Source: an uncultured Nitrososphaeraceae archaeon
GTDB taxonomy: Archaea; Thermoproteota; Nitrososphaeria; Nitrososphaerales; Nitrososphaeraceae
Length of the DNA stretch: 23,459 nucleotides
Assembly (NCBI GenBank): GCA_963837175.1
Contig: CAWIMJ010000054.1
Span: 1 to 23,459, forward strand
Direction: 5' to 3'
This document shows, one piece after another, positions 21-18,850 of this stretch. Within the stretch, counting starts at the first letter, position 1, and each line of letters begins with the position of its first letter. The notes below the pieces were generated by a model that was not told where the DNA came from, ran no database searches, and was given only the letters and a program-made list of their open reading frames with translations. A program made the position numbers and the translations under genes.

Positions 21-100
21 TGTTACCTCTTGTTACCATTTTTGTTATCATTGCTATCACTTCGTTACCTCTGCTATCATCTGTTTCCAACTGTTACCAA
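21..100. repeat. Eight imperfect copies of a TGTTACCA-like motif with ~10-bp period
   Basis: Copies start at 21, 31, 43, 52, 63, 72, 82 and 92 (tgttacc, tgttacc, tgttatc, tgctatc, cgttacc, tgctatc, tgtttcc, tgttacc). Confidence 0.65.
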
Positions 101-315
101 TGCACAGTATTTGAGTTCAGAATATCTATAATAATTCTACCTATATGTGCTAATATTCTAATGAGTTTCTTTTGAAATTAGCTTCTGTTATAATATACAC
201 ATTATTTGTTTCTTATCATACACATATTGTTTTGTATTTAAAATTGCATCGTGTCTAACACATAAACAAGTTTATTCAGCAGTTAATCATTCTTTTTCTT
301 TGAATAATAATAATA

Positions 316-1650: not shown

Positions 1651-1767
1651 TTTCTGCTCATATCATTTAGTCAATTAATTGCAAAATTGTCAGAATATAA
1701 AAAATAATGCTTTGTTGCACGACTCATTTAGATAATCATTCATCTATCTTCCAATACTAATTGATAA

Positions 1768-2753
1768 TTATGTAATGGCTATACTCTGAAACCAATTATA
1801 CAATGATACTTTCAGCATTATCTCCTTTATCATGTTTTCAAATCTAATAGCAGTAACATATTCTCCAAACATTCTCTTAATACAGGAAAAGATAGTTTCT
1901 ACAATCCATCTCTTGCCATAGATGACACTATCCTTCCATTGTTGTAGATCGGTTTTCTGTGATTGTACAGGCTTGTTTCTGAGATAGTGATTTGTTTTTC
2001 TGTATATGGAATTCTTTCGTACCTTTATTGCTGGTCTGATTCCTTTAAATGATAATAGTTGGAAATTCCTGTTACTGTCATATGAACCATCAGCAATAAC
2101 AGATTCTACTGTCTTATTTTGATTTATTGTTATATCATCTATCAATTCTGACAGTACTTTACCATCATGTACTTGTTTGCTGGTTACATCTAATGATATT
2201 ATTTTCCTCTTTTTGATATCAACTGCTACATGTATCTTTAGGTATCCTCTCTTTACATTCCACTTACTTATGTCTAATCCATTCACCTCTATTTGTTACC
2301 TTGATACCAGTCGAATCAACTGCAATTACAAAATAATCATCATTGTTGTTATTGTTTTTGCTGTTTATGTTGATATCCAATCTGTTTATTCTTCTGTTAA
2401 TGTTACTATAATAATCAGGAATGGATGGTAATGTACTTGAAGCGCGTTCTCGTACTACACCTTCGGTTTGTCTATACCAATTTGCATAATTTCTCTAACT
2501 CAACAATCGATTTTTACCTCTGAAATTCCTAAAGTGTAGTTAGAATACTTTTGCTAACTGGTATATAAGGTAGATGAAAGTACACCCTCATGTAGCCAAG
2601 TAATTCGATAAATGAATCTGGATATACAAATTTTCTACCTTCTTTACCTTGATTCATCTTCTCTAATTCAGTAGGCCAGTTATCTATAACATCAAAATCA
2701 AGTAATACCTCACCACGTTTAACAAGAGATTTGTTGTAATTTCTCCAGTTCAT
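1768..2753 (-). pseudogene. IS5-family DDE transposase, disrupted
   Basis: N-terminus MNWRNYNKSLVKRG, with DDE motifs IAVDSTG, IADGSYD and RWIVETIFSCIKRMFG. It is broken by an 89-bp insertion (2475-2563) and a 4-bp duplication at about 2262-2270. Confidence 0.9.
2475..2563. mobile_element. 89-bp MITE-like insertion with TA target-site duplication (IS630-like)
   Basis: TA at 2473-2474 and 2564-2565. The 26-bp imperfect TIRs TACCAATTTGCATAATTTCTCTAACT and TACCAGTTAGCAAAAGTATTCTAACT match at 20/26. Removing the insert plus one TA restores transposase codons CCT TAT AGA CAA (HLPYRQTEG). Confidence 0.85.
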
Positions 2754-3059
2754 ATAAGATGACTATTATCGGTTAGCTAAATGTGTTTATAGCAATGAGT
2801 TGTGCAACAAAGCAAAAAATAACAAAACCACTAATATGGACATGAAGATAGAAAATGGATAATAAAAAGAGGCAGAACAGAAGAAGATTGGAAGAAAAAG
2901 AAGCATACTCATTATCAGTAGAAGATGTGACTTTTATATCAGATTACTTTACTTGGTGTGTCTATAAGCTTAAACGTAAAAAAAGAGAAGAACAACAAGA
3001 AGAAGAGTACAATGCCTATGTAGAATGATAAATCATGCCTATTATTAGCCCATTTATGT

Positions 3060-3149
3060 TTAGATATTTTCTGGTCTAGAGATGAAAGTCTTCAAGGTTC
3101 AGAAAACATTCCAATGCCAGATATTATTGCAAAAGATATTGCAGAAAAT
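3060..3149 (+). pseudogene. hsdM: Fragment of type I restriction-modification methyltransferase (HsdM) C-terminus
   Basis: Translates LDIFWSRDESLQGSENIPMPDIIAKDIAEN, resembling the HsdM tail LDIFWLKDESLED..NLP.PDVIA.EI.E. No upstream part is present. Confidence 0.65.
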
Positions 3150-3555
3150 TATTCCTATAAATATTGCACCTTCTTCTCTCCTCTAGCTGTACTCAACAAA
3201 CAATAGAAACATTTTGTTTTGCCATAATTTGGATTCCTTCTATATGCTCCATCAACTCAATATAAAGGGATCTGTTAGGTTAACGATAAATCTATAGATA
3301 TGGTGTCAAAATAAGAATAAGATATAGTATCAACCAATTTAATTATTTTCTAAAAAAATACACTATATTTTTAACTTGCCGGTGCTAGGTCATCTTGATG
3401 AGATAAAATACGCGCGAATCTTATTTCTCTACCAGCGAATTTAACATATTCTATTACATCATCTGCTACTATATTCAGCCACCCATAATATGATATTTCA
3501 AGTATTATTTCCACATGAGTGATTCGCAAAGGAAAAAATTGTGGATGCTCCTGTA

Positions 3556-4078: not shown

Positions 4079-4729
4079 TTACCAAGTATTCCAATGTACA
4101 ATCGTATGAACTGAGTTGCGAAGTGCAGGTTTAAAATCAGTACCTATGGTATATGCCACAGGAATTAATGCAGCTTGCATGACATCTTTGTATGGAATAT
4201 TCAATATATTTGCAGCCTCTTCTTCATAGAATAGATGTAAGCTTGTCCAAGATGTACCTAAACCAAAGGAGCGAGCTCCAAGCATAAAGCTCCATGCTGC
4301 TGGAGCAATAGAACCCCATACAGCACTCTGCACAACAGTTGGTTGTCCTTCAGTACCAGCTGCTATACATGGTATTACATAAACTGGAACTAGCGCTAAA
4401 TGATCTACCAAATATTCAGCAGAGGAAATAATTCTTTTCTGGGTAGCATTTCGTTTGGGATCCTCAAATTTGATGTTAGTGATTGACGTAGGAAGCTTGA
4501 TATAAGTTTCCCAACCCTTACGAAATAGTTCTGCTAATGCAGCCTTCTTGATAGTATCGGTAACTACTACAAAGTGCCAATTCTGCATATTTGAAGCGGT
4601 AGGAGCTTGTTGAGCTATAGAAATGCATTCTTCAATCACCTCGCGTTCTACCGGACGGCTTAAGTCGAGGCGTTTACGCACTGCACGAGTTGTTGTAAGT
4701 AATTCTTTAGCAGATAGTGGAAGCATCAT
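4079..4729 (-). CDS. Nitroreductase family protein (FMN-dependent)
   Basis: Motifs TTRAVRKRLD, AQQAPTASNMQNWHFVVV, FMLGARSFGLGTSW and IPVAY. Confidence 0.92.
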   Translation of the reverse strand: MMLPLSAKELLTTTRAVRKRLDLSRPVEREVIEECISIAQQAPTASNMQNWHFVVVTDTIKKAALAELFRKGWETYIKLPTSITNIKFEDPKRNATQKRIISSAEYLVDHLALVPVYVIPCIAAGTEGQPTVVQSAVWGSIAPAAWSFMLGARSFGLGTSWTSLHLFYEEEAANILNIPYKDVMQAALIPVAYTIGTDFKPALRNSVHTIVHWNTW

Positions 4730-4889
4730 ATTCTTTACTGTCCTGCAACTATAGAATTAATTAGCTTATTGTTATCAAACTACCAATTTGGTCATCATAA
4801 TCCTTTGTATTAGAAGCAGAGCAGTATGGTTTCTGTATTAGATAAGCTTTGGAACTTTATAAATAGCATTATAATCTCACTAGTTTAGC

Positions 4890-6548
4890 ATGTTCATGTA
4901 TTTAGAAGAATATAACAGCTTAACAAAGATAATATTAATAATTGTGTTACTAGCCTTAGTTTCAGGTACACATGCTTTCAATTCTTCCTTTGCATATGCA
5001 TTAGAAGAAGACGAAAAGGAGCCGGAGAAATTGCAGAATATCGTTATAAATCCCTTATCATCATCCCTAAGCTCCAAGCCTCCTTACTCCTTATTAGATC
5101 CAAACCCATCTTTAATTGACAAAGGTGGCAACCTAATTAATAACATCAGTAAGGTTGCAAACATAACCACATATCGTAGTGGAACTATAGCTGATGGTGT
5201 CTCAAAACTAATTCTTCTTGTATATTCCAACAATACGCTGCAATTTTCAATTAATGGTACAAAGCCTGATGATTTAACAAATGGAACATTAACTAGTCTC
5301 AACCAATCATCAAATGTCAATAATTTATCCTCTACTATCATTGTTAGTCCTCAAAATATTATTAATGGAAAATCAGTTGTTGCTGCCGTATACACACCTC
5401 CAGACTTCTTTAACAATCAATACACTGGAAGCAATAGGATTATCAATGTAAATGTCTCAGATCCAAATAATCCTGCTAGTATACTTTATGAACTTCCAAT
5501 ACATCTATACCGTCCTCCTGTCATTCTTATCCATGGCATTTGGACTAATTCAAAAGAGACCTGGGTAGAGAATAGTTTCACTAAAATTAACTTCAGTAAA
5601 ACATTGAAAGATAGTGGCTTTAATATTACTTTTGCCAACTACGAAAACCATAATTCTGAAACATTCGATCCATATGCAATTAAAACAATTGGAAATTATG
5701 GAATAGACGCAACTAGAAATGCAATATATAAGATACTTGAAGGGTATCATAACCAATCAATAGCAGCATCCCAAGTAGACGTAGTAGCTCATAGTATGGG
5801 TGGTTTGATGGCTCGTGGCTTTGTACAGGAGCCTGATTATATAAAACAGGATAACTTTATGAAAGGTTCAATTCACCGATTGATAACTCTTGGCACACCA
5901 CATTTTGGTGGAAACTTATCACAGATTCTGGATCGTTATAGTGATCACTTGTATTGCCGTATTGGATTAGAAATAAAACCACCAACACAGAATTGCGAAG
6001 CTCAATTAGGCGGGCAATTAGAAGACTTGAAAATTATTTTCAACAACACCTACAAAGTACCAATTGATCAAGGAGGTGTTAAGGCATTAATCCCTGGAAG
6101 TATTGCCTATTCCCACTTATGTCAAACAAATGTAACATCATATGCTATTGCAGGTAGATGGAATCCAAAGGCTACTGTCAGCCATGTTGTACAAGAAGGT
6201 CTTTATAGAAACATTATAGAAAATGGTAATTTTGATTTAGATAAGGATGGGTTCAATGACCAAAATGATCTGGTGGTAAGCGTAAAAAGCCAGCTTGGTG
6301 GCCTTCCAAATCAAACTCGCCAATCAGAGAGCAATAATATTCCCAATAATGATAATATTCCCAATCAGAGAGCAGTATATCCTAATATTGTCCATGCACC
6401 AAGGTATACAAAAGGTACAAACATATATTCGGAAACAATGTCACCGGATATTCAGCAAGATGTCATAACATTGCTTGGCTCTTCAGCGGAGAATAAATTT
6501 AGTGATGCCATTGGAATAGGTTCTGTATGTCATATTCCTACAAAGTAA
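4890..6548 (+). CDS. Secreted/membrane-anchored alpha/beta hydrolase (lipase/esterase, PGAP1-like)
   Basis: N-terminal hydrophobic signal (IILIIVLLALVSG), oxyanion segment PVILIHGIW, nucleophile elbow VAHSMGG, LITLGTPHFG, NDLVV (Asp) and IVH (His). Confidence 0.85.
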   Translation: MFMYLEEYNSLTKIILIIVLLALVSGTHAFNSSFAYALEEDEKEPEKLQNIVINPLSSSLSSKPPYSLLDPNPSLIDKGGNLINNISKVANITTYRSGTIADGVSKLILLVYSNNTLQFSINGTKPDDLTNGTLTSLNQSSNVNNLSSTIIVSPQNIINGKSVVAAVYTPPDFFNNQYTGSNRIINVNVSDPNNPASILYELPIHLYRPPVILIHGIWTNSKETWVENSFTKINFSKTLKDSGFNITFANYENHNSETFDPYAIKTIGNYGIDATRNAIYKILEGYHNQSIAASQVDVVAHSMGGLMARGFVQEPDYIKQDNFMKGSIHRLITLGTPHFGGNLSQILDRYSDHLYCRIGLEIKPPTQNCEAQLGGQLEDLKIIFNNTYKVPIDQGGVKALIPGSIAYSHLCQTNVTSYAIAGRWNPKATVSHVVQEGLYRNIIENGNFDLDKDGFNDQNDLVVSVKSQLGGLPNQTRQSESNNIPNNDNIPNQRAVYPNIVHAPRYTKGTNIYSETMSPDIQQDVITLLGSSAENKFSDAIGIGSVCHIPTK

Positions 6549-6708
6549 CCATAATAAACATAATTACAAGTGGGCATACACATCGTTATTTGTATGATGG
6601 AATTGTGCCGAATTACATAGTTACTAATTTCTCTATTCTTTGTTGCCAAATTGTAAGTCTACAGTGATTAGAAAAAGAGGTCTAGGAATATTATAATTCA
6701 TGGATTGC

Positions 6709-6889
6709 TTAGCCACCAATATTCAAGGCATATGATATTTCAGATTTAGTGAGTACGTATGATAATGGATAGTTAATCTTGTCTGTCTTGATAGGATCAT
6801 CTTCTAGAATTCCTAGGATACAAGCCATCTTCAATAAGTAAGTATTGTTCAAACAGTAGAAGGAAAAGAATTTCCTTTTTGACTGTCAT
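6709..6889 (-). pseudogene. Small hypothetical protein, frameshifted by a 4-bp duplication
   Basis: ATG overlaps the upstream stop (ATGA, 6886-6889). Reads MTVKKEILFLLLFEQY/LLKMACILGILEDDP...NIGG*. TAAGTAAG at 6835-6842; span 181 = 3n+1. Confidence 0.4.
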
Positions 6890-7635
6890 TTGTTAAAATT
6901 TATCTGAGTGTTATTGTTATTGCTTCTTGCACAATCTGTTTCATAGCCAGTCACTATGCCATCTTCAGCTTTCAAATAGAAATACTTGGCTCCTTCTCTT
7001 GATGCATTAAACATTTTGATTAAAAGATCAGTTGACAATACTACTTCACCATTTGTTTCTTTCATTATCATGACTTTTTCCTGAAGCTCTTCTCTTTTCT
7101 CTTTCAGGCTTTCAATCTCTCTATCCTTATCTGAAAGCATCTCTGAGACATCATATAGTTCCTGAGTCGGTTCTCTAGCTTCCAATTGTTGATTTAGTTG
7201 GTTATGAAAAGTCGCAGATTCTTGCTTATTTTGCTCATATGAGTCATTTTCTGCTAGAACGATTCTAGCACCTCCTGCTTGTGTTGTATTTTGTGTGATT
7301 AGTAGCAGCATTGCCTTCTTTTTCTTCTCTTCTCCGCCCATTTTCCCAGCCTCCCGTTTCTTTGGATCCTTTGACTCTGGAGGAAGGTATTTTCGTATAG
7401 TTGCTTTAGACTATAAATCCACACAATCATGTTCTATCTTATCCCTGCAATCTTCAGGAGGCATCTTCTCCTCATCTCTTAGGATAATATATAATTCGAT
7501 GATGTATTGATTGGCTAGTCTCTCACCTTTCTGCCTTAGTTCATTCAGAACATCATCATAATGGAGAGAAAGAAAAGAAGATTGGCTTCTGTAGCAGAAG
7601 CCGCTCGAGTTGTAATAGGAGATTATCTATCCCAT
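6886..7635 (-). pseudogene. Coiled-coil hypothetical protein with in-frame premature stop
   Basis: The frame upstream of the 6886-7341 ORF continues YDDVLNELRQKGERLANQYII...HDCVDL*SKATIRKYLP. TAG at 7411-7413, probably from TGG. The true start is uncertain, with a further TAG just after ATG 7635. Confidence 0.65.
7563..7602 (-). terminator. Possible terminator-like hairpin
   Basis: GGCTTCTG-tag-CAGAAGCC 8-bp stem (7584-7602) followed on the minus strand by a pyrimidine/T-rich run. It lies ~40 bp downstream of the 7644 stop. Confidence 0.3.
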
Positions 7636-7643
7636 AGTGAAGG

Positions 7644-8485
7644 TTAAGAACAATGGTCACATTTTCCCTGAAGCATCTTTGCCTTAAGTTTTATACTATT
7701 AGTCAACTTAGTTAACTGTTCATTAAATTTTCTACTATCGTCTTCCTTTCTTTTCTGAATGATATGATAGTTAGTAATGTCGGCAGATATTTCAGGATTA
7801 CGAACTATATTATTGAGTGTAGTAACAAGATTATCCGCTCGCTTTTGATCGAATAAATGAAGATGAAACCATTTATTATTTGATATAATACCTCTCTCTC
7901 CTTTAGGATTACGTTTAAAGATAAAACCGTTCCAAGTATTGATATCATCAACTTCAGTTAGTGTGTGATTAGCTATTCCTTCTATGTCGAACGATGGTTT
8001 GGGTTCTACTCTTGAATTTTCATTGTCAGGTTTTATTATTTCTTCTGTTTCCTTTCTTATTCTTTCCTTAAGTTTCTCAGCAACTACAGCAAATAATTCA
8101 TCTGTTTTCTTCTCAGATTCTATGACTACATCTAATGAGGAGGATACTTCACTATGTCCAGTTTTCAGATGCTGTCGAAACTCTTTTCCATATTTGAAGT
8201 TCGTGAAAAACGACCCCAAATTGTAAATGGGCGATCTTTCATATTCTTCAATAAATTCTTTAACTAATGTATCACAATGTTGCTTACGTTCTTTAGTCCT
8301 CTTGTTCGTACGTTGGATAAAAAACTGGTTAATATTGGCCCAATGCTTGTTAATATAGTTAGATATTTGCTGGCGTTTGGTAGTCCAAGGAGAGCATCTA
8401 TTTGGCTTCCAAATATCGCAATACCTACAGATGATACTATGGCTATTGGAACCAAGATCATCAATGACTTGATGAAGCTTTTCAT
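7644..8485 (-). pseudogene. Membrane-anchored hypothetical protein split by a homopolymer frameshift
   Basis: The hydrophobic ORF 8264-8485 joins the 7644 frame at the T6 run (8319-8324). One extra T gives ...ILTSFFIQRTNKRTKERKQH..., a TM segment followed by basic residues. Span 842 = 3n+2. Confidence 0.65.
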
Positions 8486-8674
8486 GTAAACTTCTATAGC
8501 TTCCTATAGCTGGAAATATAAATGAACTACCAATCTTCTTGAACTTCATTACAATTAGCTAATCCCATAAACTCGTCTAGCGTTATATAGCTGGTTCGAT
8601 TCCATCAACCGATCGTTTACAACTTATGTGACATATCCAAACAACCGTAAACTTGACAGAACTAGGAAAAGAAA

Positions 8675-9650
8675 TCAATAATAGTTAGAATCTCCTTTTG
8701 TATTGAAGTACAGCTTTTCTTCTATGGCGTCTTGAAATGTTTTGTGAGGATATTCTAGGCGTTCTTTTCGTATTGTTGTTGATGTTGCTGTTAGCATACT
8801 GGAATTCATACGTTTTGAATAATTACGAATTAGAGCATTCTGTCCATCACGCCATGTTGAGCAGAAGTTCTGTCCAGTATATTCGTTTGAACCATCTTGA
8901 CCAAAGTGCCACATGGTAACAATCCATGTACTATGTTCTGGGATGGGAAGACTTTCATATCCACCTGCAACAGACTTGCCGCACTCATCAACTATCCTTG
9001 ATAACTTTTCTTCCACTCTTGTCAATGCATTAGATAATCGAATAAGTCCACTAGTATCAGTAACTATTGGTGCATTAGAACATGCCACAACAACAGTTAC
9101 CGTATCTGTCCTGTGTACAGTAGTTCTAATTCTAAGGTTATTACTAATATTCAAGAGAGGTAGGTCTATGAACTTACTTACAGGGTGTGATGTGTATTTG
9201 GATGATGACGATGATGAAGATGAAGAGACTATAGTCCAGATATCTGGTACTTGGAACTTCAGATGTATATCGTGGAGAGAGTTGTTATCTAGAGGAAGTT
9301 CTTTGATTATGTTGCAGATAGGTACGATTAAGATTAGGATTAGGATCTATGACAGAAGAAGCAGAATCAGTGACACCGATGACAGATGATACCCCCATAT
9401 GGTTAGGTGTCATCGGTTTAGCAAACTTAATACCCTTCAATGTATAAAATGCAAGAGCTGAATTGTATGCTAATTCAATCTCATCATTAGCTTTCAATTC
9501 CGAGATCTTGTTACGGAACGTTCCATGTGTCATTTTATACTCCTTTCCATTTACTTCAAATCTTAGGAAATCAAGGTAAGAGAAGGTTCTGTGTTCTACA
9601 AATACCAAGTAAGCCATATATTCTTGCATGGCATCATCAAGCTCACTCAT
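8675..9650 (-). pseudogene. ~324-aa hypothetical protein, candidate replication initiator (N-terminal wHTH-like; Rep_trans-like C-terminal motifs), one frameshift
   Basis: MSELDDAM...HGTFRNKISELKANDEIE continues after a shift in the ATCCTA tandem repeat (~9325-9346) into PICNIIKELPLDNNSLHDIHLKF...WIVTMWHFGQD...LIRNYSK...IRKE. Span 976 = 3n+1. The Rep call is inference. Confidence 0.6.
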
Positions 9651-9855
9651 TTGTAGAATATCAACTGTAGCGTAACCACTGGTACCTGTCACTGTCATCA
9701 GACGTGTCATCATAAAGTTTACAACTCCTTTCTTCTGCAGTCTGTTGTATTCTGCAAGTATTCTGCAAGTATAGTTTAGCAATAATATTCATGAATGCAC
9801 TCAATAGGCCATCATCAATTTTGTATCATCATCTATGTTTCTTGCAACCTGTTAT

Positions 9856-10029
9856 TCACTCTGCCATACTTCCTGTATGAGCGGCTATAACTTTTCCAAT
9901 TTGCTTATCAAGCCTCATACCGTTAACCCAGATTGTGGAAGAAACATTTCCATTATTATGTAAATTCAATTTGTGGTTATAACGGACTTCAGCATTGTAA
10001 GTTTGCTTTGACATTTCTAAGCAACTCAT
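9856..10029 (-). CDS. Small hypothetical protein (57 aa), not in ORF track
   Basis: MSCLEMSKQTYNAEVRY...HTGSMAE*. The ATG overlaps the upstream TGA (ATGA at 10026-10029). Confidence 0.5.
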   Translation of the reverse strand: MSCLEMSKQTYNAEVRYNHKLNLHNNGNVSSTIWVNGMRLDKQIGKVIAAHTGSMAE

Positions 10030-10460
10030 TGTACCTTTTCTTTCTTACCTATAACAGCAAAGAATTGTCCATTTACTATTTTGATAGGATCTGTGCCAAC
10101 GAGTTCAAAGTCTTTAATTGCTAAGAATTGATTGGCTTGTTCTATTGGCAATATCTGAACTTGAACCGTTCGATAGTTTGACCTTTTACCAAAATATTGC
10201 TGCTGTTTTCTAGATTCATATTCTGCTTTCATGTTCTTAAAAACAATAAAGCCACCATCTTGATTTCTCTTTACGGTGTAATGCTCTTCTCCTAGTGTTA
10301 TTTGATATCTGTCTTCTTGCTTTAGCTGTGACTTTATATCATCAGGTAGGCTTTCCCATCTACAATAAATCGAACCTTTCTGAGATAGTCGCCAAGGAGC
10401 TTGGACTGATGTTATTGATGATGATGGTGGTGGTGCTTGGCTATTATTATTGCTACTCAT
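10026..10460 (-). CDS. Hypothetical protein (~144 aa)
   Basis: Intact ORF within the co-oriented element cluster. The likely start is MSSNNN at 10460, overlapping the upstream gene end. Confidence 0.7.
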   Translation of the reverse strand: MSSNNNSQAPPPSSSITSVQAPWRLSQKGSIYCRWESLPDDIKSQLKQEDRYQITLGEEHYTVKRNQDGGFIVFKNMKAEYESRKQQQYFGKRSNYRTVQVQILPIEQANQFLAIKDFELVGTDPIKIVNGQFFAVIGKKEKVQ

Positions 10461-10639
10461 TATGTGCATCAGAACCTTTACTATCTCTGAATTTGTTTAC
10501 ACACTCCTTACAAAGTAATAGTGAAACTTTTCCTTTTTTTCCTACTTTAACTTTGATCTACAGTGGTAGCTCCTGCAAAGCATCCAACTGCTTCACATAG
10601 GCTTTTATTTACTTCAGAAGATATTATACCCTGACTCAT
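10453..10639 (-). pseudogene. Small Zn-finger protein (CxxxxC...CxxC), frameshifted
   Basis: MSQGIISSEVIKSLCEAVGCFAGATT/IKVKVGKKGKVSLLLCKECVNKFRD...*. One extra base near 10558-10562; span 187 = 3n+1. Confidence 0.7.
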
Positions 10640-10662
10640 AAAGGTCTTGACTCCTGTGGGTT

Positions 10663-10713
10663 TCGAGGTTTGCTTGGTTGCAGGGTCCAAAGCTACGATC
10701 AAGCAAACCTCGA
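10663..10713. repeat. Long inverted repeat/hairpin
   Basis: Perfect 14-bp arms TCGAGGTTTGCTTG (10663-10676) and CAAGCAAACCTCGA (10700-10713). They extend inward with G-U pairs on the + strand. Confidence 0.85.
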
Positions 10714-10798
10714 CTATTCTTTTTTGATCTAATCCTCAGCGATTGATTCATTAGCTGAAATCTTGCTAAATCATTAATCAAAATGCAAATTCCTATTA

Positions 10799-11321
10799 TC
10801 ATTTCTTATGTTCTCCTTCATCGTCTGATAAGGCTTTGACGAGCCGCAATGCAAATTTCAACTCAGCAATTTTTTCTTTATTCTCTTCAGCATATTCAGT
10901 TAAGGCTACAAATAAATTTTCTAATATCCTCATGGGATTATAAAGAAGTCTCTAATACGTAATCTACCGAGGGTTTAGCATTAATCGTATTCTTATCATG
11001 ATCATTCCATACAAAAAGTCCATACCCACTATGAAGAAATACTCTTGTTGACCCCACTTCACCCACGGTTATTTGAAAATCCCATTTATCGTATTTAGAC
11101 ATAAGCGACCGCATGTTTTCAAATATTGCTTCATAAGCTCTGACGACATCGTCTCTTGAATTTCCATCAGTTGGTAGATATGTTAGTACCTTCAACCAAC
11201 GTTCCGCTTGTACGGATATGTTTACTCCCGCTGCTTTGGCTTTCTCTATTACCTTCCTATCGACGCCGAGTGTTAGCTTGTGCTTCGTAGACTCATTACT
11301 CATATCTTCACTTTGTTGCAT
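10799..11321 (-). pseudogene. Ribbon-helix-helix (CcdA/CopG-like N-terminus) regulator, frameshifted
   Basis: N-terminal KLTLGVDRKVIEKAKAAGVNIS. After a shift near 10950 the frame continues LLYNPMRILENLFVALTEYAEENKEKIAELKFALRLVKALSDD...*. Span 523 = 3n+1. Confidence 0.7.
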
Positions 11322-11336
11322 ACACGTACAATTAAC

Positions 11337-11438
11337 ACGGGTTATATTTAAACATATACGTATAAATTATACGGGTTATATTATTTACAGGAATAACAAT
11401 TTCAGATAAAGATGGAATTGGTGGCTCTTATATAACCC
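11337..11438. promoter_or_regulatory. Putative operator repeats upstream of the RHH gene
   Basis: ACGGGTTATATT at 11337-11348 and 11371-11382, a partial inverted copy ATATAACCC at 11430-11438, and the palindrome TATACGTATA at 11355-11364. Confidence 0.45.
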
Positions 11439-11482
11439 CTATATTTACGGCGAGATTTATTGCTAGCAAGTTAAAAGAACCT

Positions 11483-12880
11483 TTAACCCATATTTTCTAA
11501 CTTCTTACTTGTTAATATCTCTGGTTTAACTTGTGCTAATTTTGGATTCTGTTGTATCATTGACATAATCTGACTGAACTGTTGATTCATTTCTTCACGT
11601 ATCTTTTTTATATCTTGCTCGTATTTTTCTGATATTGCTTGAACTTTCGCATTTTCAGCTTCCTTGATTTCATCGAAAGCAGACGGAACTAACGGATAAG
11701 AACACTTTGAGCAATATTTATTTTCTATTGCATTAACCAATTTGCAACGGGGACAACTTAGTACTGATGGTCTTCTTTGCATGATAGCAGCCTCTTCAGT
11801 TATGATACCATTATGTACAAGGATTTGGTTCTTCAAATCATTTCCCATTCTTGTTTTAATATACCTTGAGCCTTGTTTTGAATTCATAGACCATCTTACT
11901 TTCTTCTTTAAAGCATAATCAGGAAGGAAATCAGAATCAGAAGTAATTGCAGAATGGCGTATGCAGTAAGGATTCCACTTCTTTGTTTTTAAGAAATGCT
12001 CAAGTTTTTCTCTTTCTTCTTCTCCATCATTCAATTCACCTTTTTTCAATAGTCTAACTATTCTTTTCCTTAGTTCTTGCATCATATTCCATAATGCTTT
12101 AGGTTTTAATGGAGAACCATTACGTAAATTACAAATTAGTCTAGCATTTGGTTCATTTTTAAATGGATGCTGATTTAGCCAATCACGAACATATGGAAAA
12201 GAACAAGTCAACAGCACAGGACCGGCACCGGTCTTTGCCTCATGTGGAATTTCTCCCTCTCCATACTTTTCCCTTAATCTAATGTGTTTTATTTTTAGTA
12301 AGGTGATTTCATGAGGTCGTGCATCTAAGTCCCACATTAAAGTTAAAATTGCTTTATTTCTTATGTATGGTTCATATTTTAATATAGTTAATAGTTCATC
12401 ACGTTCCCATATTTCTGTTTCAGTATAAGGACTAAGACGTTTAGTAGATCTTTGCTTTATTTTAACAAAATCTGGAGTAGTCCATTCACATTCTGATAAT
12501 TGCTCAGATATGTGCGATTCAGATTGAATATATTGTTGCTGTTGTATGCTATGAACATTGTATAACCATCTGAAAAAGAGTTTTGTTCTATTTAGATAAT
12601 GATTCCAAGTAGTAATCCATCTTTTGTCTGGATCTTGTTGAGCATCCTTGATTTTTGTGTTTAGAAAGGATGTAATTTGTTCTTTTTTGTTTATACTGTA
12701 AAATCCTTCAGGTCCAAGAAACCTTGTAAAGTCTATAATTACCTTGAGATTATTAATTTGGTGATTTTCAGAAGAACCCTTATCTTGCATATATCTATAA
12801 AAATCCATAATTATCGATGCATTTTTCTTGTTTGAAAGAGAATCAACCTTACTTAATAAAGTCGAAATTTTGATGGACAT
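11483..12880 (-). CDS. Tyrosine recombinase/integrase with C-terminal Zn ribbon and coiled coil
   Basis: Catalytic residues R (DARPHEI), K (AKTG), YCIRH (HxxR variant), RW and Y (SRYI). C-terminal CPRC...CSKC. Adjacent to the tRNA 3' end. Confidence 0.92.
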   Translation of the reverse strand: MSIKISTLLSKVDSLSNKKNASIIMDFYRYMQDKGSSENHQINNLKVIIDFTRFLGPEGFYSINKKEQITSFLNTKIKDAQQDPDKRWITTWNHYLNRTKLFFRWLYNVHSIQQQQYIQSESHISEQLSECEWTTPDFVKIKQRSTKRLSPYTETEIWERDELLTILKYEPYIRNKAILTLMWDLDARPHEITLLKIKHIRLREKYGEGEIPHEAKTGAGPVLLTCSFPYVRDWLNQHPFKNEPNARLICNLRNGSPLKPKALWNMMQELRKRIVRLLKKGELNDGEEEREKLEHFLKTKKWNPYCIRHSAITSDSDFLPDYALKKKVRWSMNSKQGSRYIKTRMGNDLKNQILVHNGIITEEAAIMQRRPSVLSCPRCKLVNAIENKYCSKCSYPLVPSAFDEIKEAENAKVQAISEKYEQDIKKIREEMNQQFSQIMSMIQQNPKLAQVKPEILTSKKLENMG

Positions 12881-13049
12881 TATTATTCTTTGATTCCTCT
12901 TCCTTTATTGCACCTACTAATCTCTTTGGAAGTATCAAAATCTGCAATGGCAATTATTTCATTTTCTCTAAATACTAAATTATGAACTCTTATTATTTGC
13001 AAGACATATAGTATTATTCTAGTTCTAGTATATGAATTCGTATATATAA

Positions 13050-13181
13050 TGCGGTCACCGGGACTTGAACTCCCGCTCTATCATTTGTTAAAGATAGAGT
13101 CCCGGGTTACGGGCTTACTTCGCACTTGCATATATAAATGCATGGAAGGCCAGTGTCCTAACCAAACTAGACGATGACCGC
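13050..13181 (-). tRNA. tRNA-Gly(TCC) with two introns (37/38: 13116-13142, 27 nt; 53/54: 13070-13100, 31 nt)
   Basis: Acceptor stem GCGGTCA/TGACCGC + A73; D arm GTCTAGTTTGGTTAGGAC; anticodon TCC (13146-13144); T stem CCGGG/CCCGG with TTCAAGT loop. Both introns fold into BHB-type motifs. No encoded CCA. Confidence 0.93.
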
Positions 13182-13241
13182 ATTAAATAGCCAACATGAA
13201 ATGGATATTAAATCTTAACGATTAATGCTTGACAAGAATAG

Positions 13242-13808
13242 TTATCTTTCCTCTGGGAATATATAGTTAAGGAGTATATCAATCGCCTTATCTTTCGATT
13301 TCTTCTTGTAGTTTTCTAGACTTTTTCTTGGAACATCTAATGCCTTTTCTTTTTCAACTTCCTCAACAGGTCTATGATCTAATGCGCCTTCAAATTGAAC
13401 TTTGTATCCCTTTAATTTAGATACTACTGTAGAATCATAAATATCTCTAAGCCAAACAGAACCTACGAAATAAATGTACGGCGGATTAACCCTAGTTTTA
13501 ATCATATTTATAACACGATCGAACGTCTGTGCTACATTTTCTGAAGAAGAGTCTATTGCGATTATCTTTTCTTCAACTCCTCCTTTCACTAACTCCTCTT
13601 TTATAAGTTTGCCAGATTTCTCATTTGCAACAACTATGATCAATGTTTTTTGTTTGTCGGGTTTTGATTCCCTGATAATTTTAAAGGTGCCCTGGCATAC
13701 ATTCACCCGTTCTTTTATATGATCGGGCAATCCTCCATCAGTAGATTTCCCTCTATTTATACCGTAGAGGATAATCAGATTTCCATCTGTAAAGCGAAAT
13801 TCGGACAT
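13242..13808 (-). CDS. Hypothetical protein, DUF218/YdcF-like
   Basis: LIILYG...LPDHIKERV and IKEELVKGGVEEKIIAIDSSSENVAQT resemble a degenerate DUF218 pattern. Intact 188-aa ORF. Confidence 0.6.
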   Translation of the reverse strand: MSEFRFTDGNLIILYGINRGKSTDGGLPDHIKERVNVCQGTFKIIRESKPDKQKTLIIVVANEKSGKLIKEELVKGGVEEKIIAIDSSSENVAQTFDRVINMIKTRVNPPYIYFVGSVWLRDIYDSTVVSKLKGYKVQFEGALDHRPVEEVEKEKALDVPRKSLENYKKKSKDKAIDILLNYIFPEER

Positions 13809-16295: not shown

Positions 16296-16877
16296 GTGTT
16301 AATAACACGGTGCTGCTGTTTTACTGGTAATAATCTTAATTATTGTTATTGTTATTGTTGCTTCCTCCACCACTCCAATGAGCAGATCCCAGCTCTATAT
16401 GCCACTGCTATGGGTATTGATGCATTGACAGCTCTAATTTTTGGACGTCTATTTGACAAAAAAGGACTGTTGATTCTCATTAGCGTTCCTCTTTTGACTA
16501 TACCCATAGCGCCTTTATTTTCAATGAACTTTAGAGACGTTTTGGTAGGTATAATATTGTGGGTGTCAGTATTAGGTATTCAAGAAACTATTATGAAAGC
16601 TGCAGTTGCTAATATGATCCCAATTGCAAAACGTGGTTTAGTTTTTGGTATTTTCAACGCTACTTTTGGCATAACATGGCTTTTAGGAAGTACATTCATG
16701 GGAATATTGTACAGCCTTTCTATTTCATACATAATCCTTTTCTCTATCATAGTGGAGCTAGTTTCAGTTCCACTGATTTTAATGGTAAGCAATAAAATTA
16801 AGAGATTTAAGGCATACAATCTAGAAGAAGGAATTATATACTTTTTAGGAATGCATAAATTTTTTTCGATATATTAA
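16296..16877 (+). pseudogene. MFS transporter, C-terminal half only
   Basis: QIPALYATAMGIDA...FGRLFDKKG...KRGLVFGIFN. The recognisable part starts at ~16380 after low-complexity TATTGT repeats. The N-terminal TM bundle is absent. Confidence 0.75.
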
Positions 16878-17540
16878 TGCAACAAGTGAAGTTCCTATAA
16901 ATGTGGCAGACAAATAAAGCCACAGATTAGTCAATACGCCGGACAGCAAAGCAGGAGCTAAAGAACGAGCTGGATTCATAGAAGCACCAGATATAAATGC
17001 TAAAAAGAATATGTCTAAACCAACCATGCCTCCTATAGCAATCGCTCCAAAACCTTTCAATCCTTTTGTATTAACTACTATTAGGATAACAGCCATAAGA
17101 AGAGCAGACGCGATTATTTCAACTCCAAAAATTACAGGTAGAGGAAAAGCATAATTTGGAGCATTAGCTCCTAAATTGGCTTCATTTCCTATAATATATT
17201 TTACAAATAGACTCCCTAGTAAAGCACCAATTATCTCTGCAGCAAAATAGTATACTAATTGAATTTTTGTAATATATTTAGTGATCATAAATCCAACTGT
17301 AACTGCCGGATTAAAATGAGCCATTGAGATTTTTCCAAACAAGTATACACCCAAGGCTACTCCAACAAAAGGTGCGAATGCAATAAATGGGATACCTAAT
17401 ATACCATTCATTTTAGCGTCTATTACTACAGAACCAGTAGCAAAAACTATTACAATAAATGTGCCAATAACTTCAGCTACAAACCTCTTTTGATTCTCAG
17501 TTAGATTCTTTGATATCTTGCTTATTAAGCTCTGCTGCAA
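16845..17540 (-). CDS. MIP family aquaporin/aquaglyceroporin, probable arsenite channel
   Basis: AEVIGTF and two NPA boxes (HFNPAVT, SMNPARS). Last gene of the arsM-arsC cluster; its TTG start overlaps arsC. Confidence 0.9.
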   Translation of the reverse strand: MQQSLISKISKNLTENQKRFVAEVIGTFIVIVFATGSVVIDAKMNGILGIPFIAFAPFVGVALGVYLFGKISMAHFNPAVTVGFMITKYITKIQLVYYFAAEIIGALLGSLFVKYIIGNEANLGANAPNYAFPLPVIFGVEIIASALLMAVILIVVNTKGLKGFGAIAIGGMVGLDIFFLAFISGASMNPARSLAPALLSGVLTNLWLYLSATFIGTSLVALIYRKKFMHS

Positions 17541-17961
17541 GTTCCCTTACTCTTCTTTCTATCCCATCTCTTATCTCTCTAACTTTCTCTATTGGTTTAT
17601 CTTTAGGATCTTCTAGCCCCCAGTCTATTACTTTGGGTATATACACAGTAGGGCAGAAATAATTGTCCATGCATCCCATATTAACTACTGTAGTGGCATT
17701 TCTTATCATATCTTCTGTCAAATCCTTTGATTTCTGTTTGCTAATATCTATACCTACTTCTTTCATAACTTGTAATGCTAATGGGTTAATCTCTGAGACA
17801 GGCTTGGTTCCTGCACTTAAGGTTGCATATCCTCTAGGAGCATATTTTCTAAAGAAGCCTTCTGCCATCTGGCTTCGGCCTGCGTTTTGTACGCAAACAA
17901 ACAGAACGGTTTTACCTATTTCTCGTTCTTTAGTTTTTAATTTACCAAATGAAAATTTCAT
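17497..17961 (-). CDS. arsC: Arsenate reductase (LMW-PTP fold, thioredoxin-type)
   Basis: P-loop CVQNAGRSQMAE (CX5R), SAGTKP, resolving cysteines MGC...FCP, and WGLEDP. Confidence 0.9.
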   Translation of the reverse strand: MKFSFGKLKTKEREIGKTVLFVCVQNAGRSQMAEGFFRKYAPRGYATLSAGTKPVSEINPLALQVMKEVGIDISKQKSKDLTEDMIRNATTVVNMGCMDNYFCPTVYIPKVIDWGLEDPKDKPIEKVREIRDGIERRVRELAAELNKQDIKESN

Positions 17962-18003
17962 ATTTGTTTAATCTTCCCCTCCTCTTTCTTGTTTTATCAT
18001 TTA

Positions 18004-18786
18004 CTATTCTTTGACAGCCTTGATAACTAGACTACTAATCTTTCTACTATCATTAACTTCCTCTCCTTCTTTGTAGCATTTGTCATCTAACACTTCAATA
18101 TTTGTAAATCCTGCTTTTCTTATACTATTAAGATAGTTCTCTTTTGTTAATGCGCCATCTATACAACTACACCATTTTTCTGAATCAATTGAGTCCGTCT
18201 CCACTTCTTTATCTGTAACTAAATCTGAAATTACCATTCTTCCTTGACCCTGTTTTAAAATTCGATAAATCTCCTTGAATGTGCTTACTTTGTCTGTAGT
18301 TAAATTGATAACACAATTACTGATAACTACATCTGCGGTGTTATCATCTATAGGAATCCTTCTTTCTATATCACCTTTTCTAAATTCTACATTCGTATAG
18401 CCACCATTATCTTTTGCATTTTTTCTTGCTTTCTTTAACATCTCATCAGTCATATCAATGCCTATTACTTTTCCAGATTCTTTAACTCTATTTGCTGACA
18501 AAAATACATCAATTCCTGCACCAGATCCTAAATCAACAACAGTTTCGTCTTCTTTGAGTTCAGCATGGTTTACGGGTGCTCCACACCCAACTCCAAGTAT
18601 TGAGGGTTTAGGAATAGATTCTAACTCTTTAGTATCATAACCAACAACTGCAGCAGCCTGTATTGGCGAACTTCCTTGCTCGCTGCATTCACAAGGAACA
18701 CAACAACAATTAGAATTTCCTGTTAATGCAATTTTGCCATACCTTTCTTTTACTTTTTCTTTTATATTAGCAGCTGATTCTTGCAC
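18004..18786 (-). CDS. arsM: Arsenite S-adenosylmethionine methyltransferase
   Basis: VKERYGKIA, LGVGCGAP, SAM motif VVDLGSGAGID, ISNCVINL and WCSCIDGA. Cys-rich N-terminus. Confidence 0.92.
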   Translation of the reverse strand: MQESAANIKEKVKERYGKIALTGNSNCCCVPCECSEQGSSPIQAAAVVGYDTKELESIPKPSILGVGCGAPVNHAELKEDETVVDLGSGAGIDVFLSANRVKESGKVIGIDMTDEMLKKARKNAKDNGGYTNVEFRKGDIERRIPIDDNTADVVISNCVINLTTDKVSTFKEIYRILKQGQGRMVISDLVTDKEVETDSIDSEKWCSCIDGALTKENYLNSIRKAGFTNIEVLDDKCYKEGEEVNDSRKISSLVIKAVKE

Positions 18787-18850
18787 ATCAATGTTTTACA
18801 AATAAAACTATTTAAGTTATCAAGGGTAAACAAGTAAACTAAGCACAATT
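18787..18850. promoter_or_regulatory. 64-bp divergent promoter region with candidate operator
   Basis: Inverted repeat GTTTTA-caaa-TAAAAC (18793-18808), a central TATTTAAG TATA-like box, and a direct repeat GTAAAC x2 (18826-18839). Confidence 0.45.

What the first reader, a model, noticed from the sequence alone, without database searches (positions are those of the whole stretch)
6709..12880. Cryptic tRNA-Gly integrative element with an unfamiliar compact backbone
Minus-strand order: integrase(Zn ribbon) - RHH - hairpin - Zn finger - two coupled small ORFs - Rep candidate - membrane protein - coiled-coil protein - small ORF (seen after frame repair). No capsid, conjugation or packaging gene is recognisable. 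It resembles an integrated small plasmid or virus satellite and may represent a poorly described archaeal element family (inference).
Basis: partly seen in the sequence, partly recalled or inferred. Interest (0 to 1): 0.75.

Follow-up and report, generated by a model that had tools for sequence, protein, structure and literature searches.

The report
Archaeal integrated element with Rep-like gene
Next to a glycine tRNA gene of a soil ammonia-oxidising archaeon sits a small plasmid-like integrated element whose conserved partner of the integrase is an unnamed protein that looks, by predicted fold, like a rolling-circle replication starter.

Summary
The gene string is real. A two-intron tRNA-Gly (13050-13181, minus) is followed by an intact tyrosine integrase with a C-terminal zinc ribbon, an RHH gene, a conserved hairpin, a small Zn-finger gene, two coupled ORFs and a 'Rep candidate'. 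Six same-genus loci lose homology to the window at the tRNA 3' end (13016-13053), so the block is an insertion. No second att copy was found and the left end is undefined. The 'membrane protein' is not supported. The Rep candidate is one roughly 320-aa protein with an N-terminal winged helix and a C-terminal TBP-like double saddle. It has no Pfam, PHROG, NCBIfam or PDB sequence match, but 1051 cluster representatives in metagenomes. In 18 of 20 related loci it lies 0.8-5 kb downstream of an integrase, often beside a tRNA. One such element is bounded by a 19-bp repeat and is 11 kb long. The fold matches TBP (Z 7.4) and the Rep_trans initiator RepDE (Z 6.7), as reported in 2026 for the archaeal Rep-Arvir family, but with reversed domain order and no sequence link. 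The three frameshifts are absent from otherwise identical short-read contigs, so they are probably assembly errors. Verdict: a thaumarchaeal cryptic integrated element with a probably new Rep_trans-like initiator family.

The parts
13050..13181 (-). tRNA-Gly(UCC) gene with two introns. It is the integration target and attL side. The T loop differs by one base from all 6 relatives (13065 C versus T).
   Evidence: Rfam RF00005 at 26 bits, model positions 1-71; missed by ARAGORN; alignment with relatives.
13016..13049 (.). tRNA trailer in which homology to same-genus genomes ends. This is the right junction of the inserted block.
   Evidence: Blastn end points at 13016, 13016, 13024, 13024, 13033 and 13053 in 6 loci; alignment; loose ends of metagenome contigs at 13024, 13049 and 13050.
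11483..12880 (-). Tyrosine recombinase (integrase), 465 aa and intact, with a C-terminal CxxC...CxxC zinc ribbon and a coiled-coil tail.
   Evidence: PF00589 E 8.4e-4, below cut-off; NCBIfam XerA_Arch E 7.3e-6, below cut-off; PHROG integrase E 6.5e-11; homologues in 27 of 41 genomes.
11319..11446 (.). Two direct 30-nt repeats (11319-11348 and 11353-11382, 83% alike) and one inverted partial copy (11430-11446) between the integrase and the RHH gene. Candidate operator or iteron-like sites.
   Evidence: the repeat finder D10 and I2. The function is inferred.
10799..11321 (-). RHH-like gene. It is split in the window into 127-aa and 44-aa ORFs by one extra base at 10949, and is a single ORF in relatives.
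   Evidence: CcdA/RHH E 0.0016, below cut-off; fused ORF in L088; base absent in X1 and X2 contigs; 176 stop-free codons after its removal.
10663..10713 (.). Hairpin or palindrome with 21-nt arms and a 9-nt loop, upstream of the Zn-finger gene. It is conserved in four copies.
   Evidence: the repeat finder I1; alignments: 15 pairs, 3 with compensatory changes.
10453..10639 (-). Small Zn-finger gene (C..GC...LCxxC), 61 aa when read without the extra base at 10560.
   Evidence: intact 61-aa ORF in L088; base absent in X1 and X2 contigs; frame restored.
10026..10469 (-). o147, a conserved hypothetical protein, translationally coupled (ATGA) to o57.
   Evidence: 63 other proteins up to 95% identical in metagenomes; rare in species genomes, 6 of 201 including the own genome.
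9856..10029 (-). o57, a small ORF coupled to o147.
   Evidence: 93% identical ORF in L088.
8675..9782 (-). Rep candidate, with an N-terminal winged helix and a C-terminal TBP-like double saddle. The likely start is at 9650. One extra base at 9321 splits it in the window.
7565..8670 (-). Variable insert carrying o301 (7644-8549), which is absent from the collinear relative.
   Evidence: L088 joins window 8671 directly to 7564; loose ends at 7564 in X1 and X9; 5 homologues only; 3 weak matches in 120 other family genomes.
6886..7564 (-). Coiled-coil protein gene (o151 plus its upstream part), interrupted by an in-frame TAG at 7411-7413. A homologue sits in the second element on contig C2.
   Evidence: Divergent contigs read TGG there (7412 T>C). 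No identical contig covers the codon.
6709..6852 (-). o47, a small ORF of doubtful reality. Window 6799-7015 has an 89% copy on contig C8. The left end of the element is not defined.

Best explanation
This is a cryptic integrated element (plasmid-like, with no virion or conjugation genes) inserted just 3' of a two-intron tRNA-Gly gene of a soil Nitrososphaeraceae archaeon.

Shown: it is an insertion relative to same-genus genomes. Its integrase is intact. It belongs to a set of elements in ammonia-oxidising archaea whose only widely shared genes are a tyrosine integrase and, 0.8-5 kb downstream on the same strand, a roughly 320-aa protein made of a winged-helix domain and a TBP-like double-saddle domain.

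Inferred mechanism: the integrase recombines a short att at or near the tRNA 3' end to excise a circle. The wHTH/TBP-fold protein then acts as the replication initiator of that circle. Most likely it is a Rep_trans-like rolling-circle nickase. The winged helix would bind an origin repeat or hairpin, and the invariant Tyr (in RNYSK), with conserved His, Asp and Glu on the sheet, would nick it and link covalently. The RHH and Zn-finger proteins would be the regulators.

The three frameshifts in the window are probably assembly errors, so the element may be functional. Its distal att is not identifiable.
For: Insertion. All 6 same-genus loci lose homology at 13016-13053. In G002 and G005 the far side continues into sequence that lies on contig C22 in this genome. 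An independent 1138-nt contig of run X2 bridges the integrase and the tRNA without differences.

Family. The N half of the Rep candidate matches 37 of 121 family genomes including the own one, often several times per genome. Both halves lie adjacent in 19 of 20 fetched loci; the twentieth is cut by its contig end. An integrase-cluster ORF lies upstream on the same strand in 18 of 20 loci. ARAGORN finds a tRNA directly upstream of the integrase in 7 of 20. L033 has an exact 19-bp repeat of the tRNA-Ala 3' end 10.96 kb away, E 6.9e-6, and its cargo is a DNA methylase, an HNH protein and a TPR protein. A second element on contig C2 of this genome has the order tRNA, integrase, RHH, hairpin, Zn finger, coiled-coil gene, divergent Rep. 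The profile finds 1051 cluster representatives at E<=1e-3. It occurs in 6 of 43 genomes of a second family of the order and in none of the other 257 phylum genomes sampled.

Rep function. The N domain is a winged helix (best Z 9.4, rmsd 2.4, 64 aligned). The C-domain model has pLDDT 88.7. VIA gives TBP Z 7.4 over 149 residues and RepDE 4cwc_A Z 6.7 over 156 residues. Foldseek gives TBPs at E 1.5e-4 to 1e-3. In BFVD, an uncharacterised Inoviridae protein ranks 2 and 'GST REP' of Inoviridae ranks 13, among giant-virus TBPs. This is the same hit pattern that Wang et al. 2026 report for RepSNJ2 (PMC13107129, section 26 read). Among 105 sequences W, D and Y are invariant and H, H, C, K, R and E are at least 90% conserved. 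All lie in predicted strands, in the order D...D...Y...E, as for RepDE D46, D142, Y191, E214 (paper). The ESM Atlas nearest named clusters are DUF7845 at 0.81 and 0.80, a lead only.

Frames. Contigs of X1, X2 and X9 that are otherwise identical lack one base at 9321. Contigs of X1 and X2 lack one base at 10560 and one at 10949. Removing each restores 370, 63 and 176 stop-free codons. All three genes are intact in L088.
Against: - No second att copy: the best match is a 12-nt chance-level hit (E 0.23), and nothing appears within 3 mismatches.
- No contig showed an excised circle or an empty site (contigs only, no raw reads).
- The nine loci around the closest integrase relatives (54-81% identity) hold no Rep-family ORF. 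The integrase is therefore shared with other backbones and the 'backbone' is modular.
- TBP scores as high as or higher than RepDE, and no match reaches Z 8. A non-catalytic DNA-binding saddle fits the fold equally well.
- There is no sequence-level link to Rep-Arvir (hhalign probability 0.23%) or to any Pfam family.
- I could not superpose coordinates, so the active-site geometry is untested.
- The motif is YxK, not the YxxK of Rep_trans.
- The hairpin is conserved only in the close subgroup. In 13 other loci no common hairpin was found.
- An in-frame TAG at 7411-7413 is not contradicted by any identical contig.
- The runs laid may include the sample the genome came from, so the indel evidence is not fully independent.
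Confidence: 0.6

Rival explanations
1. The element is the same, but the wHTH/TBP-fold protein is not a nuclease. It would be a DNA-bending origin-binding initiator of theta-type replication, or simply the element's master transcription regulator, using the saddle as TBP does.
For: TBPs are the top fold matches (Z 7.2-7.4; Foldseek probability about 1.0). An N-terminal winged helix is typical of regulators and of iteron-plasmid Reps. Iteron-like direct repeats lie at 11319-11382. Krupovic et al. 2019 caution that wHTH proteins of such elements may be regulators (PMC6563490, section 13 read).
Against: The invariant and near-invariant residues are Tyr, Asp, His, His, Glu, Lys and Arg on strands. 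That is a catalytic-looking set rather than the hydrophobic DNA-contact surface of TBP (the latter recalled). RepDE aligns over more residues than TBP, 156 against 149. Inoviridae Rep-type hits appear in BFVD.
Confidence: 0.25
2. It is a dead remnant: an element that integrated long ago, lost its distal att and is decaying in a tRNA-linked island together with IS copies and repeats. It no longer moves or replicates.
For: No attR was found. There is a TAG in the coiled-coil gene. The neighbourhood is a mosaic of an IS and multi-copy repeats. A 1.1-kb insert (o301) is present relative to L088. The C2 copy has a split integrase.
Against: The integrase is intact. The three frameshifts vanish in identical short-read contigs. 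Thaumarchaeal att sites can be as short as 8 bp and need a close empty-site relative to be found (PMC6563490, section 6 read).
Confidence: 0.3
3. It is a provirus or virus satellite whose structural genes are unrecognisable ORFans, for example a pleomorphic membrane-vesicle type virus.
For: Rep-Arvir proteins occur in pleolipoviruses and lemon-shaped viruses (PMC13107129, section 28 read). Several ORFs (o147, o57, o301, coiled-coil) have no known family. o147 is abundant and highly conserved in metagenomes but rare in genomes.
Against: No predicted membrane protein is present. There is no ATPase, spike or capsid match. The att-bounded relative L033 carries restriction-modification-like cargo rather than structural genes.
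Confidence: 0.1
4. It is not an element at all, only lineage-specific chromosomal genes that happen to lie beside an integrase.
For: No att pair was found, and GC content (0.35-0.37) is not distinct from other parts of the contig.
Against: The genes are absent at this locus in 6 of 6 same-genus loci. The Rep family is multicopy, patchy and integrase-linked. A collinear copy exists in an unrelated metagenome contig.
Confidence: 0.03

Closest known systems
Thaumarchaeal cryptic integrated elements (CIE) of Krupovic et al. 2019 (PMC6563490; sections 6 and 13 read)
   Same: A tyrosine integrase next to the 3' end of a tRNA gene, intron-containing tRNAs included. Small size, mostly ORFans, RHH and wHTH genes, no virion or conjugation genes, and short att sites that are hard to find.
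   Different: That paper states that CIEs have no discernible signature gene and that many lack an identifiable replication protein. Here a specific wHTH/TBP-fold protein recurs with the integrase. I could not see the supplements, so I cannot say whether any of their 74 elements carries it.
Rep-Arvir family (DUF7845, PF25227), RepSNJ2 of betapleolipovirus SNJ2 (Wang et al. 2026, PMC13107129; abstract and sections 26 and 28 read, other passages by term search)
   Same: An archaeal mobile-element protein that combines a TBP-like fold related to Rep_trans with a winged helix. It is carried by integrase-bearing elements at tRNA-type sites. Its structure hits are TBPs and Inoviridae Reps. A conserved Tyr and acidic residues are present, and a hairpin serves as a candidate origin.
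   Different: The domain order is reversed (wHTH first, saddle second). The size is about 320 aa against about 545-660 aa, and there is no third domain. There is no PF25227 match and no profile-profile signal. The Tyr motif is YSK rather than KHYYM. The hosts are Nitrososphaerales, a group the main text does not name (0 occurrences of 'Nitroso').
Rep_trans (PF02486) rolling-circle initiators, RepD/RepDE of pT181-type plasmids (PDB 4CWC, 4CIJ)
   Same: A double TBP-like saddle (Z 6.7 over 156 residues and Z 4.7 over 130). The conserved Asp, Asp, Tyr and Glu occur in the same order along the chain.
   Different: There is no sequence similarity. The motif is YxK instead of YxxK. A winged helix is fused. 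The hosts are archaeal. Catalysis is untested.
TATA-box binding protein
   Same: It is the best overall fold match (Z 7.2-7.4; Foldseek E 1.5e-4).
   Different: TBP is a core transcription factor of about 180 aa without a winged helix. It is single-copy and not linked to integrases. The conserved polar residues here have no counterpart that I know of in TBP (recalled).

Membership tests
Tyrosine recombinase / phage integrase (PF00589) | Match to the catalytic-domain profile above the curated cut-off | tested here: not met
   PF00589 scores 19.6 bits against a cut-off of 27.1, E 8.4e-4. NCBIfam XerA_Arch scores 25.7 bits against 220. The PHROG integrase family matches at E 6.5e-11. This is a divergent member; the superfamily assignment rests on three concordant sub-threshold or PHROG hits.
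Tyrosine recombinase / phage integrase (PF00589) | Catalytic R..K..H-x-x-R..[H/W]..Y residues | tested here: inconclusive
   ARPHE, IRHS, RWS and SRYIK stretches are visible in the translation. No residue-level alignment to a characterised enzyme was made.
Thaumarchaeal cryptic integrated element | Integrase-bearing block absent from the same site in related genomes | tested here: met
   6 of 6 same-genus loci diverge at 13016-13053.
Thaumarchaeal cryptic integrated element | Flanking direct repeats (att) | tested here: not met
   None was found in the 23.5-kb contig. The feature is met in the relative L033, with a 19-bp repeat.
Thaumarchaeal cryptic integrated element | No virion, packaging or conjugation genes | tested here: met
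   Pfam, PHROGs and NCBIfam scans found none.
Rep-Arvir (DUF7845, PF25227) | Match to PF25227 | tested here: not met
   0 of 12 members match at E<=1, whereas HGPV-1 ORF14 matches at 1e-115. hhalign of 105 sequences against 7 DUF7845 sequences gives probability 0.23%.
Rep-Arvir (DUF7845, PF25227) | N-terminal TBP-fold catalytic domain followed by a central wHTH | tested here: not met
   The order here is wHTH at residues 1-75, then the saddle at about 110-320.
Rep-Arvir (DUF7845, PF25227) | TBP-like fold with an absolutely conserved Tyr | tested here: met
   Fold. Invariant Tyr among 105 sequences.
Rep_trans (PF02486) | Match to PF02486, or a structural match to RepD/RepDE | tested here: inconclusive
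   There is no Pfam match. 4cwc_A gives Z 6.7, rmsd 5.1, 156 aligned, tied with TBP.
Rep_trans (PF02486) | Catalytic Tyr in YxxK with three metal-binding acidic residues at the sheet centre | not testable with these tools
   The motif here is YxK. Model coordinates could not be superposed, and no biochemistry is available.
TATA-box binding protein | Stand-alone two-repeat saddle, a core single-copy gene | tested here: not met
   The saddle is fused to a wHTH. The gene is multicopy, patchy (37 of 121 genomes) and integrase-linked.

The most novel reading that the evidence does not exclude
The wHTH/TBP-fold protein founds a third branch, specific to ammonia-oxidising archaea, of the Rep_trans / Rep-Arvir rolling-circle endonucleases. 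The domain order is permuted and the protein is about half the size. It marks a large family of self-replicating, tRNA-integrating plasmids of Nitrososphaerales. A minimal replicon (this gene plus its origin hairpin or repeats) could then serve as the first vector backbone for these genetically intractable organisms.
Probability: 0.4. Interest if true: 0.75.

Novelty: new variant of a known kind. Interest (0 to 1): 0.6.

Why it matters
Ammonia-oxidising archaea drive soil and ocean nitrification. To my knowledge they have no genetic system (recalled). Their integrated elements were catalogued in 2019 with the remark that no signature gene exists and that replication proteins are often unidentifiable. 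This locus leads to a concrete candidate: an unnamed family with 1051 cluster representatives that travels with integrases at tRNA genes. Its fold ties it to the rolling-circle initiators just recognised in haloarchaeal and thermococcal viruses and plasmids. If confirmed, it would extend that replication mechanism to a further archaeal lineage and give these elements a classification handle. It would also point to a minimal replicon for vector building. A practical by-product: three apparent pseudogenes in this assembly are probably single-base insertion errors.

Tried and rejected
- **Att search.** blastn-short of 12881-13260 against the rest of the contig gave only a 12-nt match (13081-13092, inside the tRNA's T-loop insert, against 6886-6897; E 0.23). 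I rejected it as att because the 89% copy on C8 (window 6799-7015) runs straight across that point, and because relatives keep homology to 13016. Pattern searches for the tRNA 3' end with 3 mismatches found only the tRNA itself.
- **Att in related loci.** A repeat was found in 1 of 7 tRNA-flanked loci (L033). The other six gave only chance-level 9-12-nt matches within the DNA fetched. None was found for C2.
- **Left boundary by comparison.** The hydrolase (4890-6548) has roughly 70% relatives in G001 and G005, but only the gene itself is shared, not its flanks. No boundary could be derived.
- **Backbone conservation.** tblastn of 12 ORFs against 18 loci around integrase relatives hit only the integrase. 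A profile search of 9 of these loci found no Rep. Clustering of 1477 ORFs from 21 loci gave only two shared families plus their antisense shadows.
- **o301.** It is essentially an ORFan in 120 other family genomes (3 weak matches).
- **Common origin hairpin.** In 13 related loci there was no shared inverted repeat. In 4 of 13 an inverted repeat lies 50-160 bp upstream of the Rep start.
- **Sequence-level identification of the Rep.** Pfam, PHROGs, NCBIfam and a PDB profile search (best E 0.056, dynactin, judged noise) all gave nothing.
- **First whole-protein model.** It had pLDDT 67.7. Its Foldseek hits (COR domain, TM 0.17) were discarded as meaningless. The VIA list was filled by the winged helix, so the C domain was folded alone.
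- **Metagenome scan with o147.** It returned a single 2.6-kb locus.
- **Circular or empty-site forms.** No joint across the element appeared in contigs of X1, X2, X4 and X9. These are contigs, not reads, so this says nothing about absence. Joints that skip 63-66 nt inside the tRNA (X4) and 229 nt in the integrase (X4, one contig) were not followed.
- **Closed or unseen sources.** Supplements of both papers were not seen. Table S2 and data file 1 of PMC6563490 and Tables S4-S5 of PMC13107129 could show whether this family or Nitrososphaeria homologues were already listed.
- **Literature searches for prior description.**: no paper joins Nitrososphaer* with Rep_trans. The 3 papers include the two read.
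- **Unpublished genome.** Counts over the 20 loci include L049, which comes from the unpublished genome G055. Without it the counts are 17 of 19 (integrase upstream) and 6 of 19 (tRNA). L049 is in neither alignment A1 nor A2.

Full report
**Setting.** The window is a whole 23,459-bp contig (C54) of a 3.8-Mb, 58-contig genome, 91% complete. GC content is about 0.31-0.37. Its relatives are large-genome members of one family whose sister families have 1-2 Mb genomes. I take it to be a soil Nitrososphaeraceae ammonia oxidiser, from genome size, GC and the soil or rhizosphere origin of every run that holds the stretch. The taxon name itself is my inference.

**The observation.**
- ARAGORN finds no tRNA. 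Rfam's tRNA model aligns end to end at 13181-13050 on the minus strand, with 29- and 38-nt inserts in the anticodon and T loops (26 bits, just under the 29-bit threshold). The anticodon loop reads CUUCC..., hence Gly(UCC) by my reading.
- The same gene, inserts included, is 88-91% conserved in six same-genus loci, so it is a real two-intron tRNA.
- The integrase (465 aa) is intact. It hits integrase profiles weakly but consistently and ends in a CxxC...CxxC ribbon and a coiled coil.
- The RHH call rests on a weak CcdA-type match (E 0.0016).
- The hairpin (21-nt arms) is real. It is conserved with three compensatory pairs in four copies: the window, a metagenome relative, and contigs C2 and C20 of the same genome.
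- The 'membrane protein' is not supported. Only a 73-aa alternative frame inside o301 is hydrophobic.

**It is an insertion.** In all six same-genus loci, homology to the window runs through the right flank and the whole tRNA, then stops at 13016-13053. The alignment shows a shared 30-nt trailer in three relatives and then unrelated sequence. In the window the tRNA's T loop carries one base unlike all six relatives. Beyond the tRNA, G002 and G005 continue into sequence that lies on contig C22 in this genome. Metagenome contigs also break away at 13024, 13049 and 13050, while one X2 contig bridges the integrase and the tRNA exactly. The right junction is therefore well placed.

The left one is not. 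No copy of the tRNA end or trailer exists in the contig. The genes further left are an alpha/beta hydrolase, a nitroreductase, an IS and a GNAT. They too lack synteny with relatives. Krupovic et al. 2019 report thaumarchaeal att sites with a median of 17 bp and as short as 8 bp, which need an empty-site relative to be recognised (PMC6563490, section 6). My failure is therefore not strong evidence of decay.

**The 'Rep candidate' is one gene.**
- ORFs 9285-9782 and 8675-9154 match the N and C halves of single 270-370-aa proteins in other genomes.
- The missing middle motif (…LPLDNNSLHDIHLKF…) is present in the frame of the C half, so one frame shift separates the halves.
- Starting from this protein, 37 of 121 family genomes have it, often in several copies and often broken, but 0 of 6 same-genus genomes do.
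- In 20 fetched loci, both halves are adjacent in 19. An integrase-cluster ORF lies upstream on the same strand in 18. A tRNA directly precedes that integrase in at least 7. This is a lower bound, since ARAGORN also missed the window's tRNA.
- L033, from a closed genome, has an exact 19-bp repeat of the tRNA-Ala 3' end 10.96 kb away. Between the repeats lie the integrase, small genes, the Rep-like gene, a TPR protein, a DNA methylase and an HNH protein. It is a plasmid-like cryptic element with defence-type cargo.
- A second element sits on contig C2 of the same genome, with the order tRNA, frame-split integrase, RHH, the same hairpin, Zn finger, coiled-coil gene and a divergent Rep-family protein (A2 profile E 5.7e-16).

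**Against a fixed backbone.** All-against-all clustering finds only these two families shared across loci. The nine loci around the closest integrase relatives (54-81% identity) contain no Rep-family ORF. The association is one-sided. The Rep nearly always has an integrase, but this integrase clade also serves other elements.

**A close relative and the frames.** A 2.6-kb metagenome contig (L088) is 85.7% identical and collinear with window 11077-8671. It then continues at 7564-7429, skipping 7565-8670. The o301 block is therefore a variable insert, and loose ends at 7564 in two runs agree. In L088 the RHH and 44-aa ORFs form one ORF, the Zn-finger gene is an intact 61 aa and the Rep is an intact 352 aa.

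I then laid the contigs of four soil runs from three studies on the region. Contigs that are otherwise identical lack one base at 9321 (X1, X2, X9), at 10560 (X1, X2) and at 10949 (X1, X2). Removing each base in silico reopens 370, 63 and 176 codons. One of these runs may be the assembly's own source, so a strain variant is not excluded.

The TAG at 7411-7413 in the coiled-coil gene stands where the C2 homologue has Trp, and where divergent contigs read TGG. No identical contig covers it, so it is unresolved.

**What the conserved protein is.**
- No Pfam, PHROG, NCBIfam or PDB sequence match exists.
- A profile search of 1.84 billion representatives finds 1051 proteins at E<=1e-3 and 215 at E<=1e-30.
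- In a phylum-wide sample it occurs in 6 of 43 genomes of a second family of the same order and in none of the 257 others.
- The N-terminal 75 residues model as a winged helix (Z 9.4).
- The C-terminal domain, folded alone with 105 sequences, gives a confident model (pLDDT 88.7, pTM 0.83) of two beta-alpha repeats.
- Its matches are TBPs (VIA Z 7.2-7.4 over 146-150 residues; Foldseek E 1.5e-4 upward) and the Rep_trans rolling-circle initiators RepDE (4cwc_A, Z 6.7, 156 residues) and RepSTK1 (4cij_A, Z 4.7).
- Among viral models, giant-virus TBPs are mixed with Inoviridae proteins, one of them named REP.

This is the pattern that Wang et al. (2026, PMC13107129, section 26) describe for RepSNJ2. 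They show by mutagenesis that RepSNJ2 is a Tyr-dependent initiator, and they name its family Rep-Arvir (DUF7845).

The ESM Atlas independently puts DUF7845 clusters next after the protein's own cluster (0.81, a lead only). The present family is not DUF7845. There is no PF25227 match (against 1e-115 for HGPV-1 ORF14). hhalign probability is 0.23%. The domain order is reversed and the protein is about half as long.

The invariant W, D and Y, and the at least 90% conserved H, H, C, K, R and E, sit in predicted strands. They follow the order Asp...Asp...Tyr...Glu known for RepDE and RepSNJ2 (paper). This is why I favour a nickase over a mere DNA binder. The geometry was not checked and the motif is YxK, not YxxK.

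**Mechanism proposed.** The steps are marked as shown or inferred.
- Shown: the insertion beside the tRNA, the intact integrase, the recurrent integrase-Rep pairing, an att-bounded relative, and the TBP/Rep_trans-like fold.
- Inferred: the integrase excises a circle. The wHTH domain binds an origin, with two candidates: the conserved 10663-10713 hairpin, and the 11319-11446 repeats between the integrase and RHH. The saddle nicks through the invariant Tyr and starts rolling-circle replication. RHH and the Zn-finger protein regulate.
- No circular form was seen (contigs only).

**Comparison and novelty.** As a class this is a thaumarchaeal cryptic integrated element (2019). As a replication module it works like Rep-Arvir and Rep_trans but fails the sequence and architecture tests for membership in either.

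Searches of the paper library found no text that joins Nitrososphaer* with Rep_trans, and no description of this family. The Rep-Arvir paper's main text has no 'Nitroso' word.

I rate it a new variant of a known kind. The element itself is ordinary. The conserved wHTH/TBP-fold protein is the interesting part.

**Limits.** The counts over 20 loci include one locus (L049) from an unpublished genome (G055). The genomes searched are samples. The fold scores are in the range where a shared arrangement does not prove a shared function.

Noticed in passing
window 1667-2821: An IS with a DDE_Tnp_1 transposase (1768-2286, Pfam E 3e-23). Copies at 97-99% lie on contigs C13 and C34, and copies at about 78% lie on C39, C24 and C36. 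The window copy carries a nested 95-bp insert (2473-2567) that recurs alone on C13, C34 and C58 (MITE-like). Contig C15 holds the uninterrupted target (window 1667-1707 joined to 2814-3168).
   Followed up: partly
window 9321, 10560, 10949: There are three single extra bases relative to otherwise identical short-read contigs of two or three runs, and none lies in a homopolymer. The assembly may carry similar insertion errors elsewhere, creating false pseudogenes.
   Followed up: yes
window 16834-19240: A 2.4-kb stretch (MIP channel gene 16845-17540, a 154-aa ORF and a SAM methyltransferase 18004-18786) is 93% identical to contig C39:47993-50405, a recent duplication. A truncated MFS gene (16296-16877, 193 aa) abuts it.
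   Followed up: no
window 4729-4779: A roughly 50-bp sequence just upstream of the nitroreductase start recurs at 84-91% in many contigs of this genome (C7, C8, C41) and in all six same-genus genomes. It could be a dispersed promoter-like or miniature repeat.
   Followed up: no
window 1-210 and 23116-23459: The contig's left end is a repeat found on more than 10 other contigs at 76-90% identity. Its last 344 bases are identical to the first 344 of contig C17, so C54 probably joins C17.
   Followed up: no
window 13077-13142: Two contigs of run X4 (depth 36 and 10) skip 63-66 nt inside the tRNA-Gly gene, spanning from the T-loop insert to the anticodon-loop insert. They may come from an intron-poor tRNA-Gly allele or a paralogue in co-occurring relatives.
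   Followed up: no
L079 (G000:C2) 4957-6964: Downstream of the second element's Rep lie a 330-aa ORF with a Bergerat-type ATPase-looking motif (my reading, no Pfam match at E<=0.001) and a 400-aa ORF. The pair could be cargo of a defence type.
   Followed up: no
window 6799-7015: The end of the coiled-coil gene and the sequence downstream of it have an 89% copy on contig C8 (23359-23576), with no other element gene nearby. Metagenome contigs of three runs carry that copy with a common breakpoint at 6799.
   Followed up: partly
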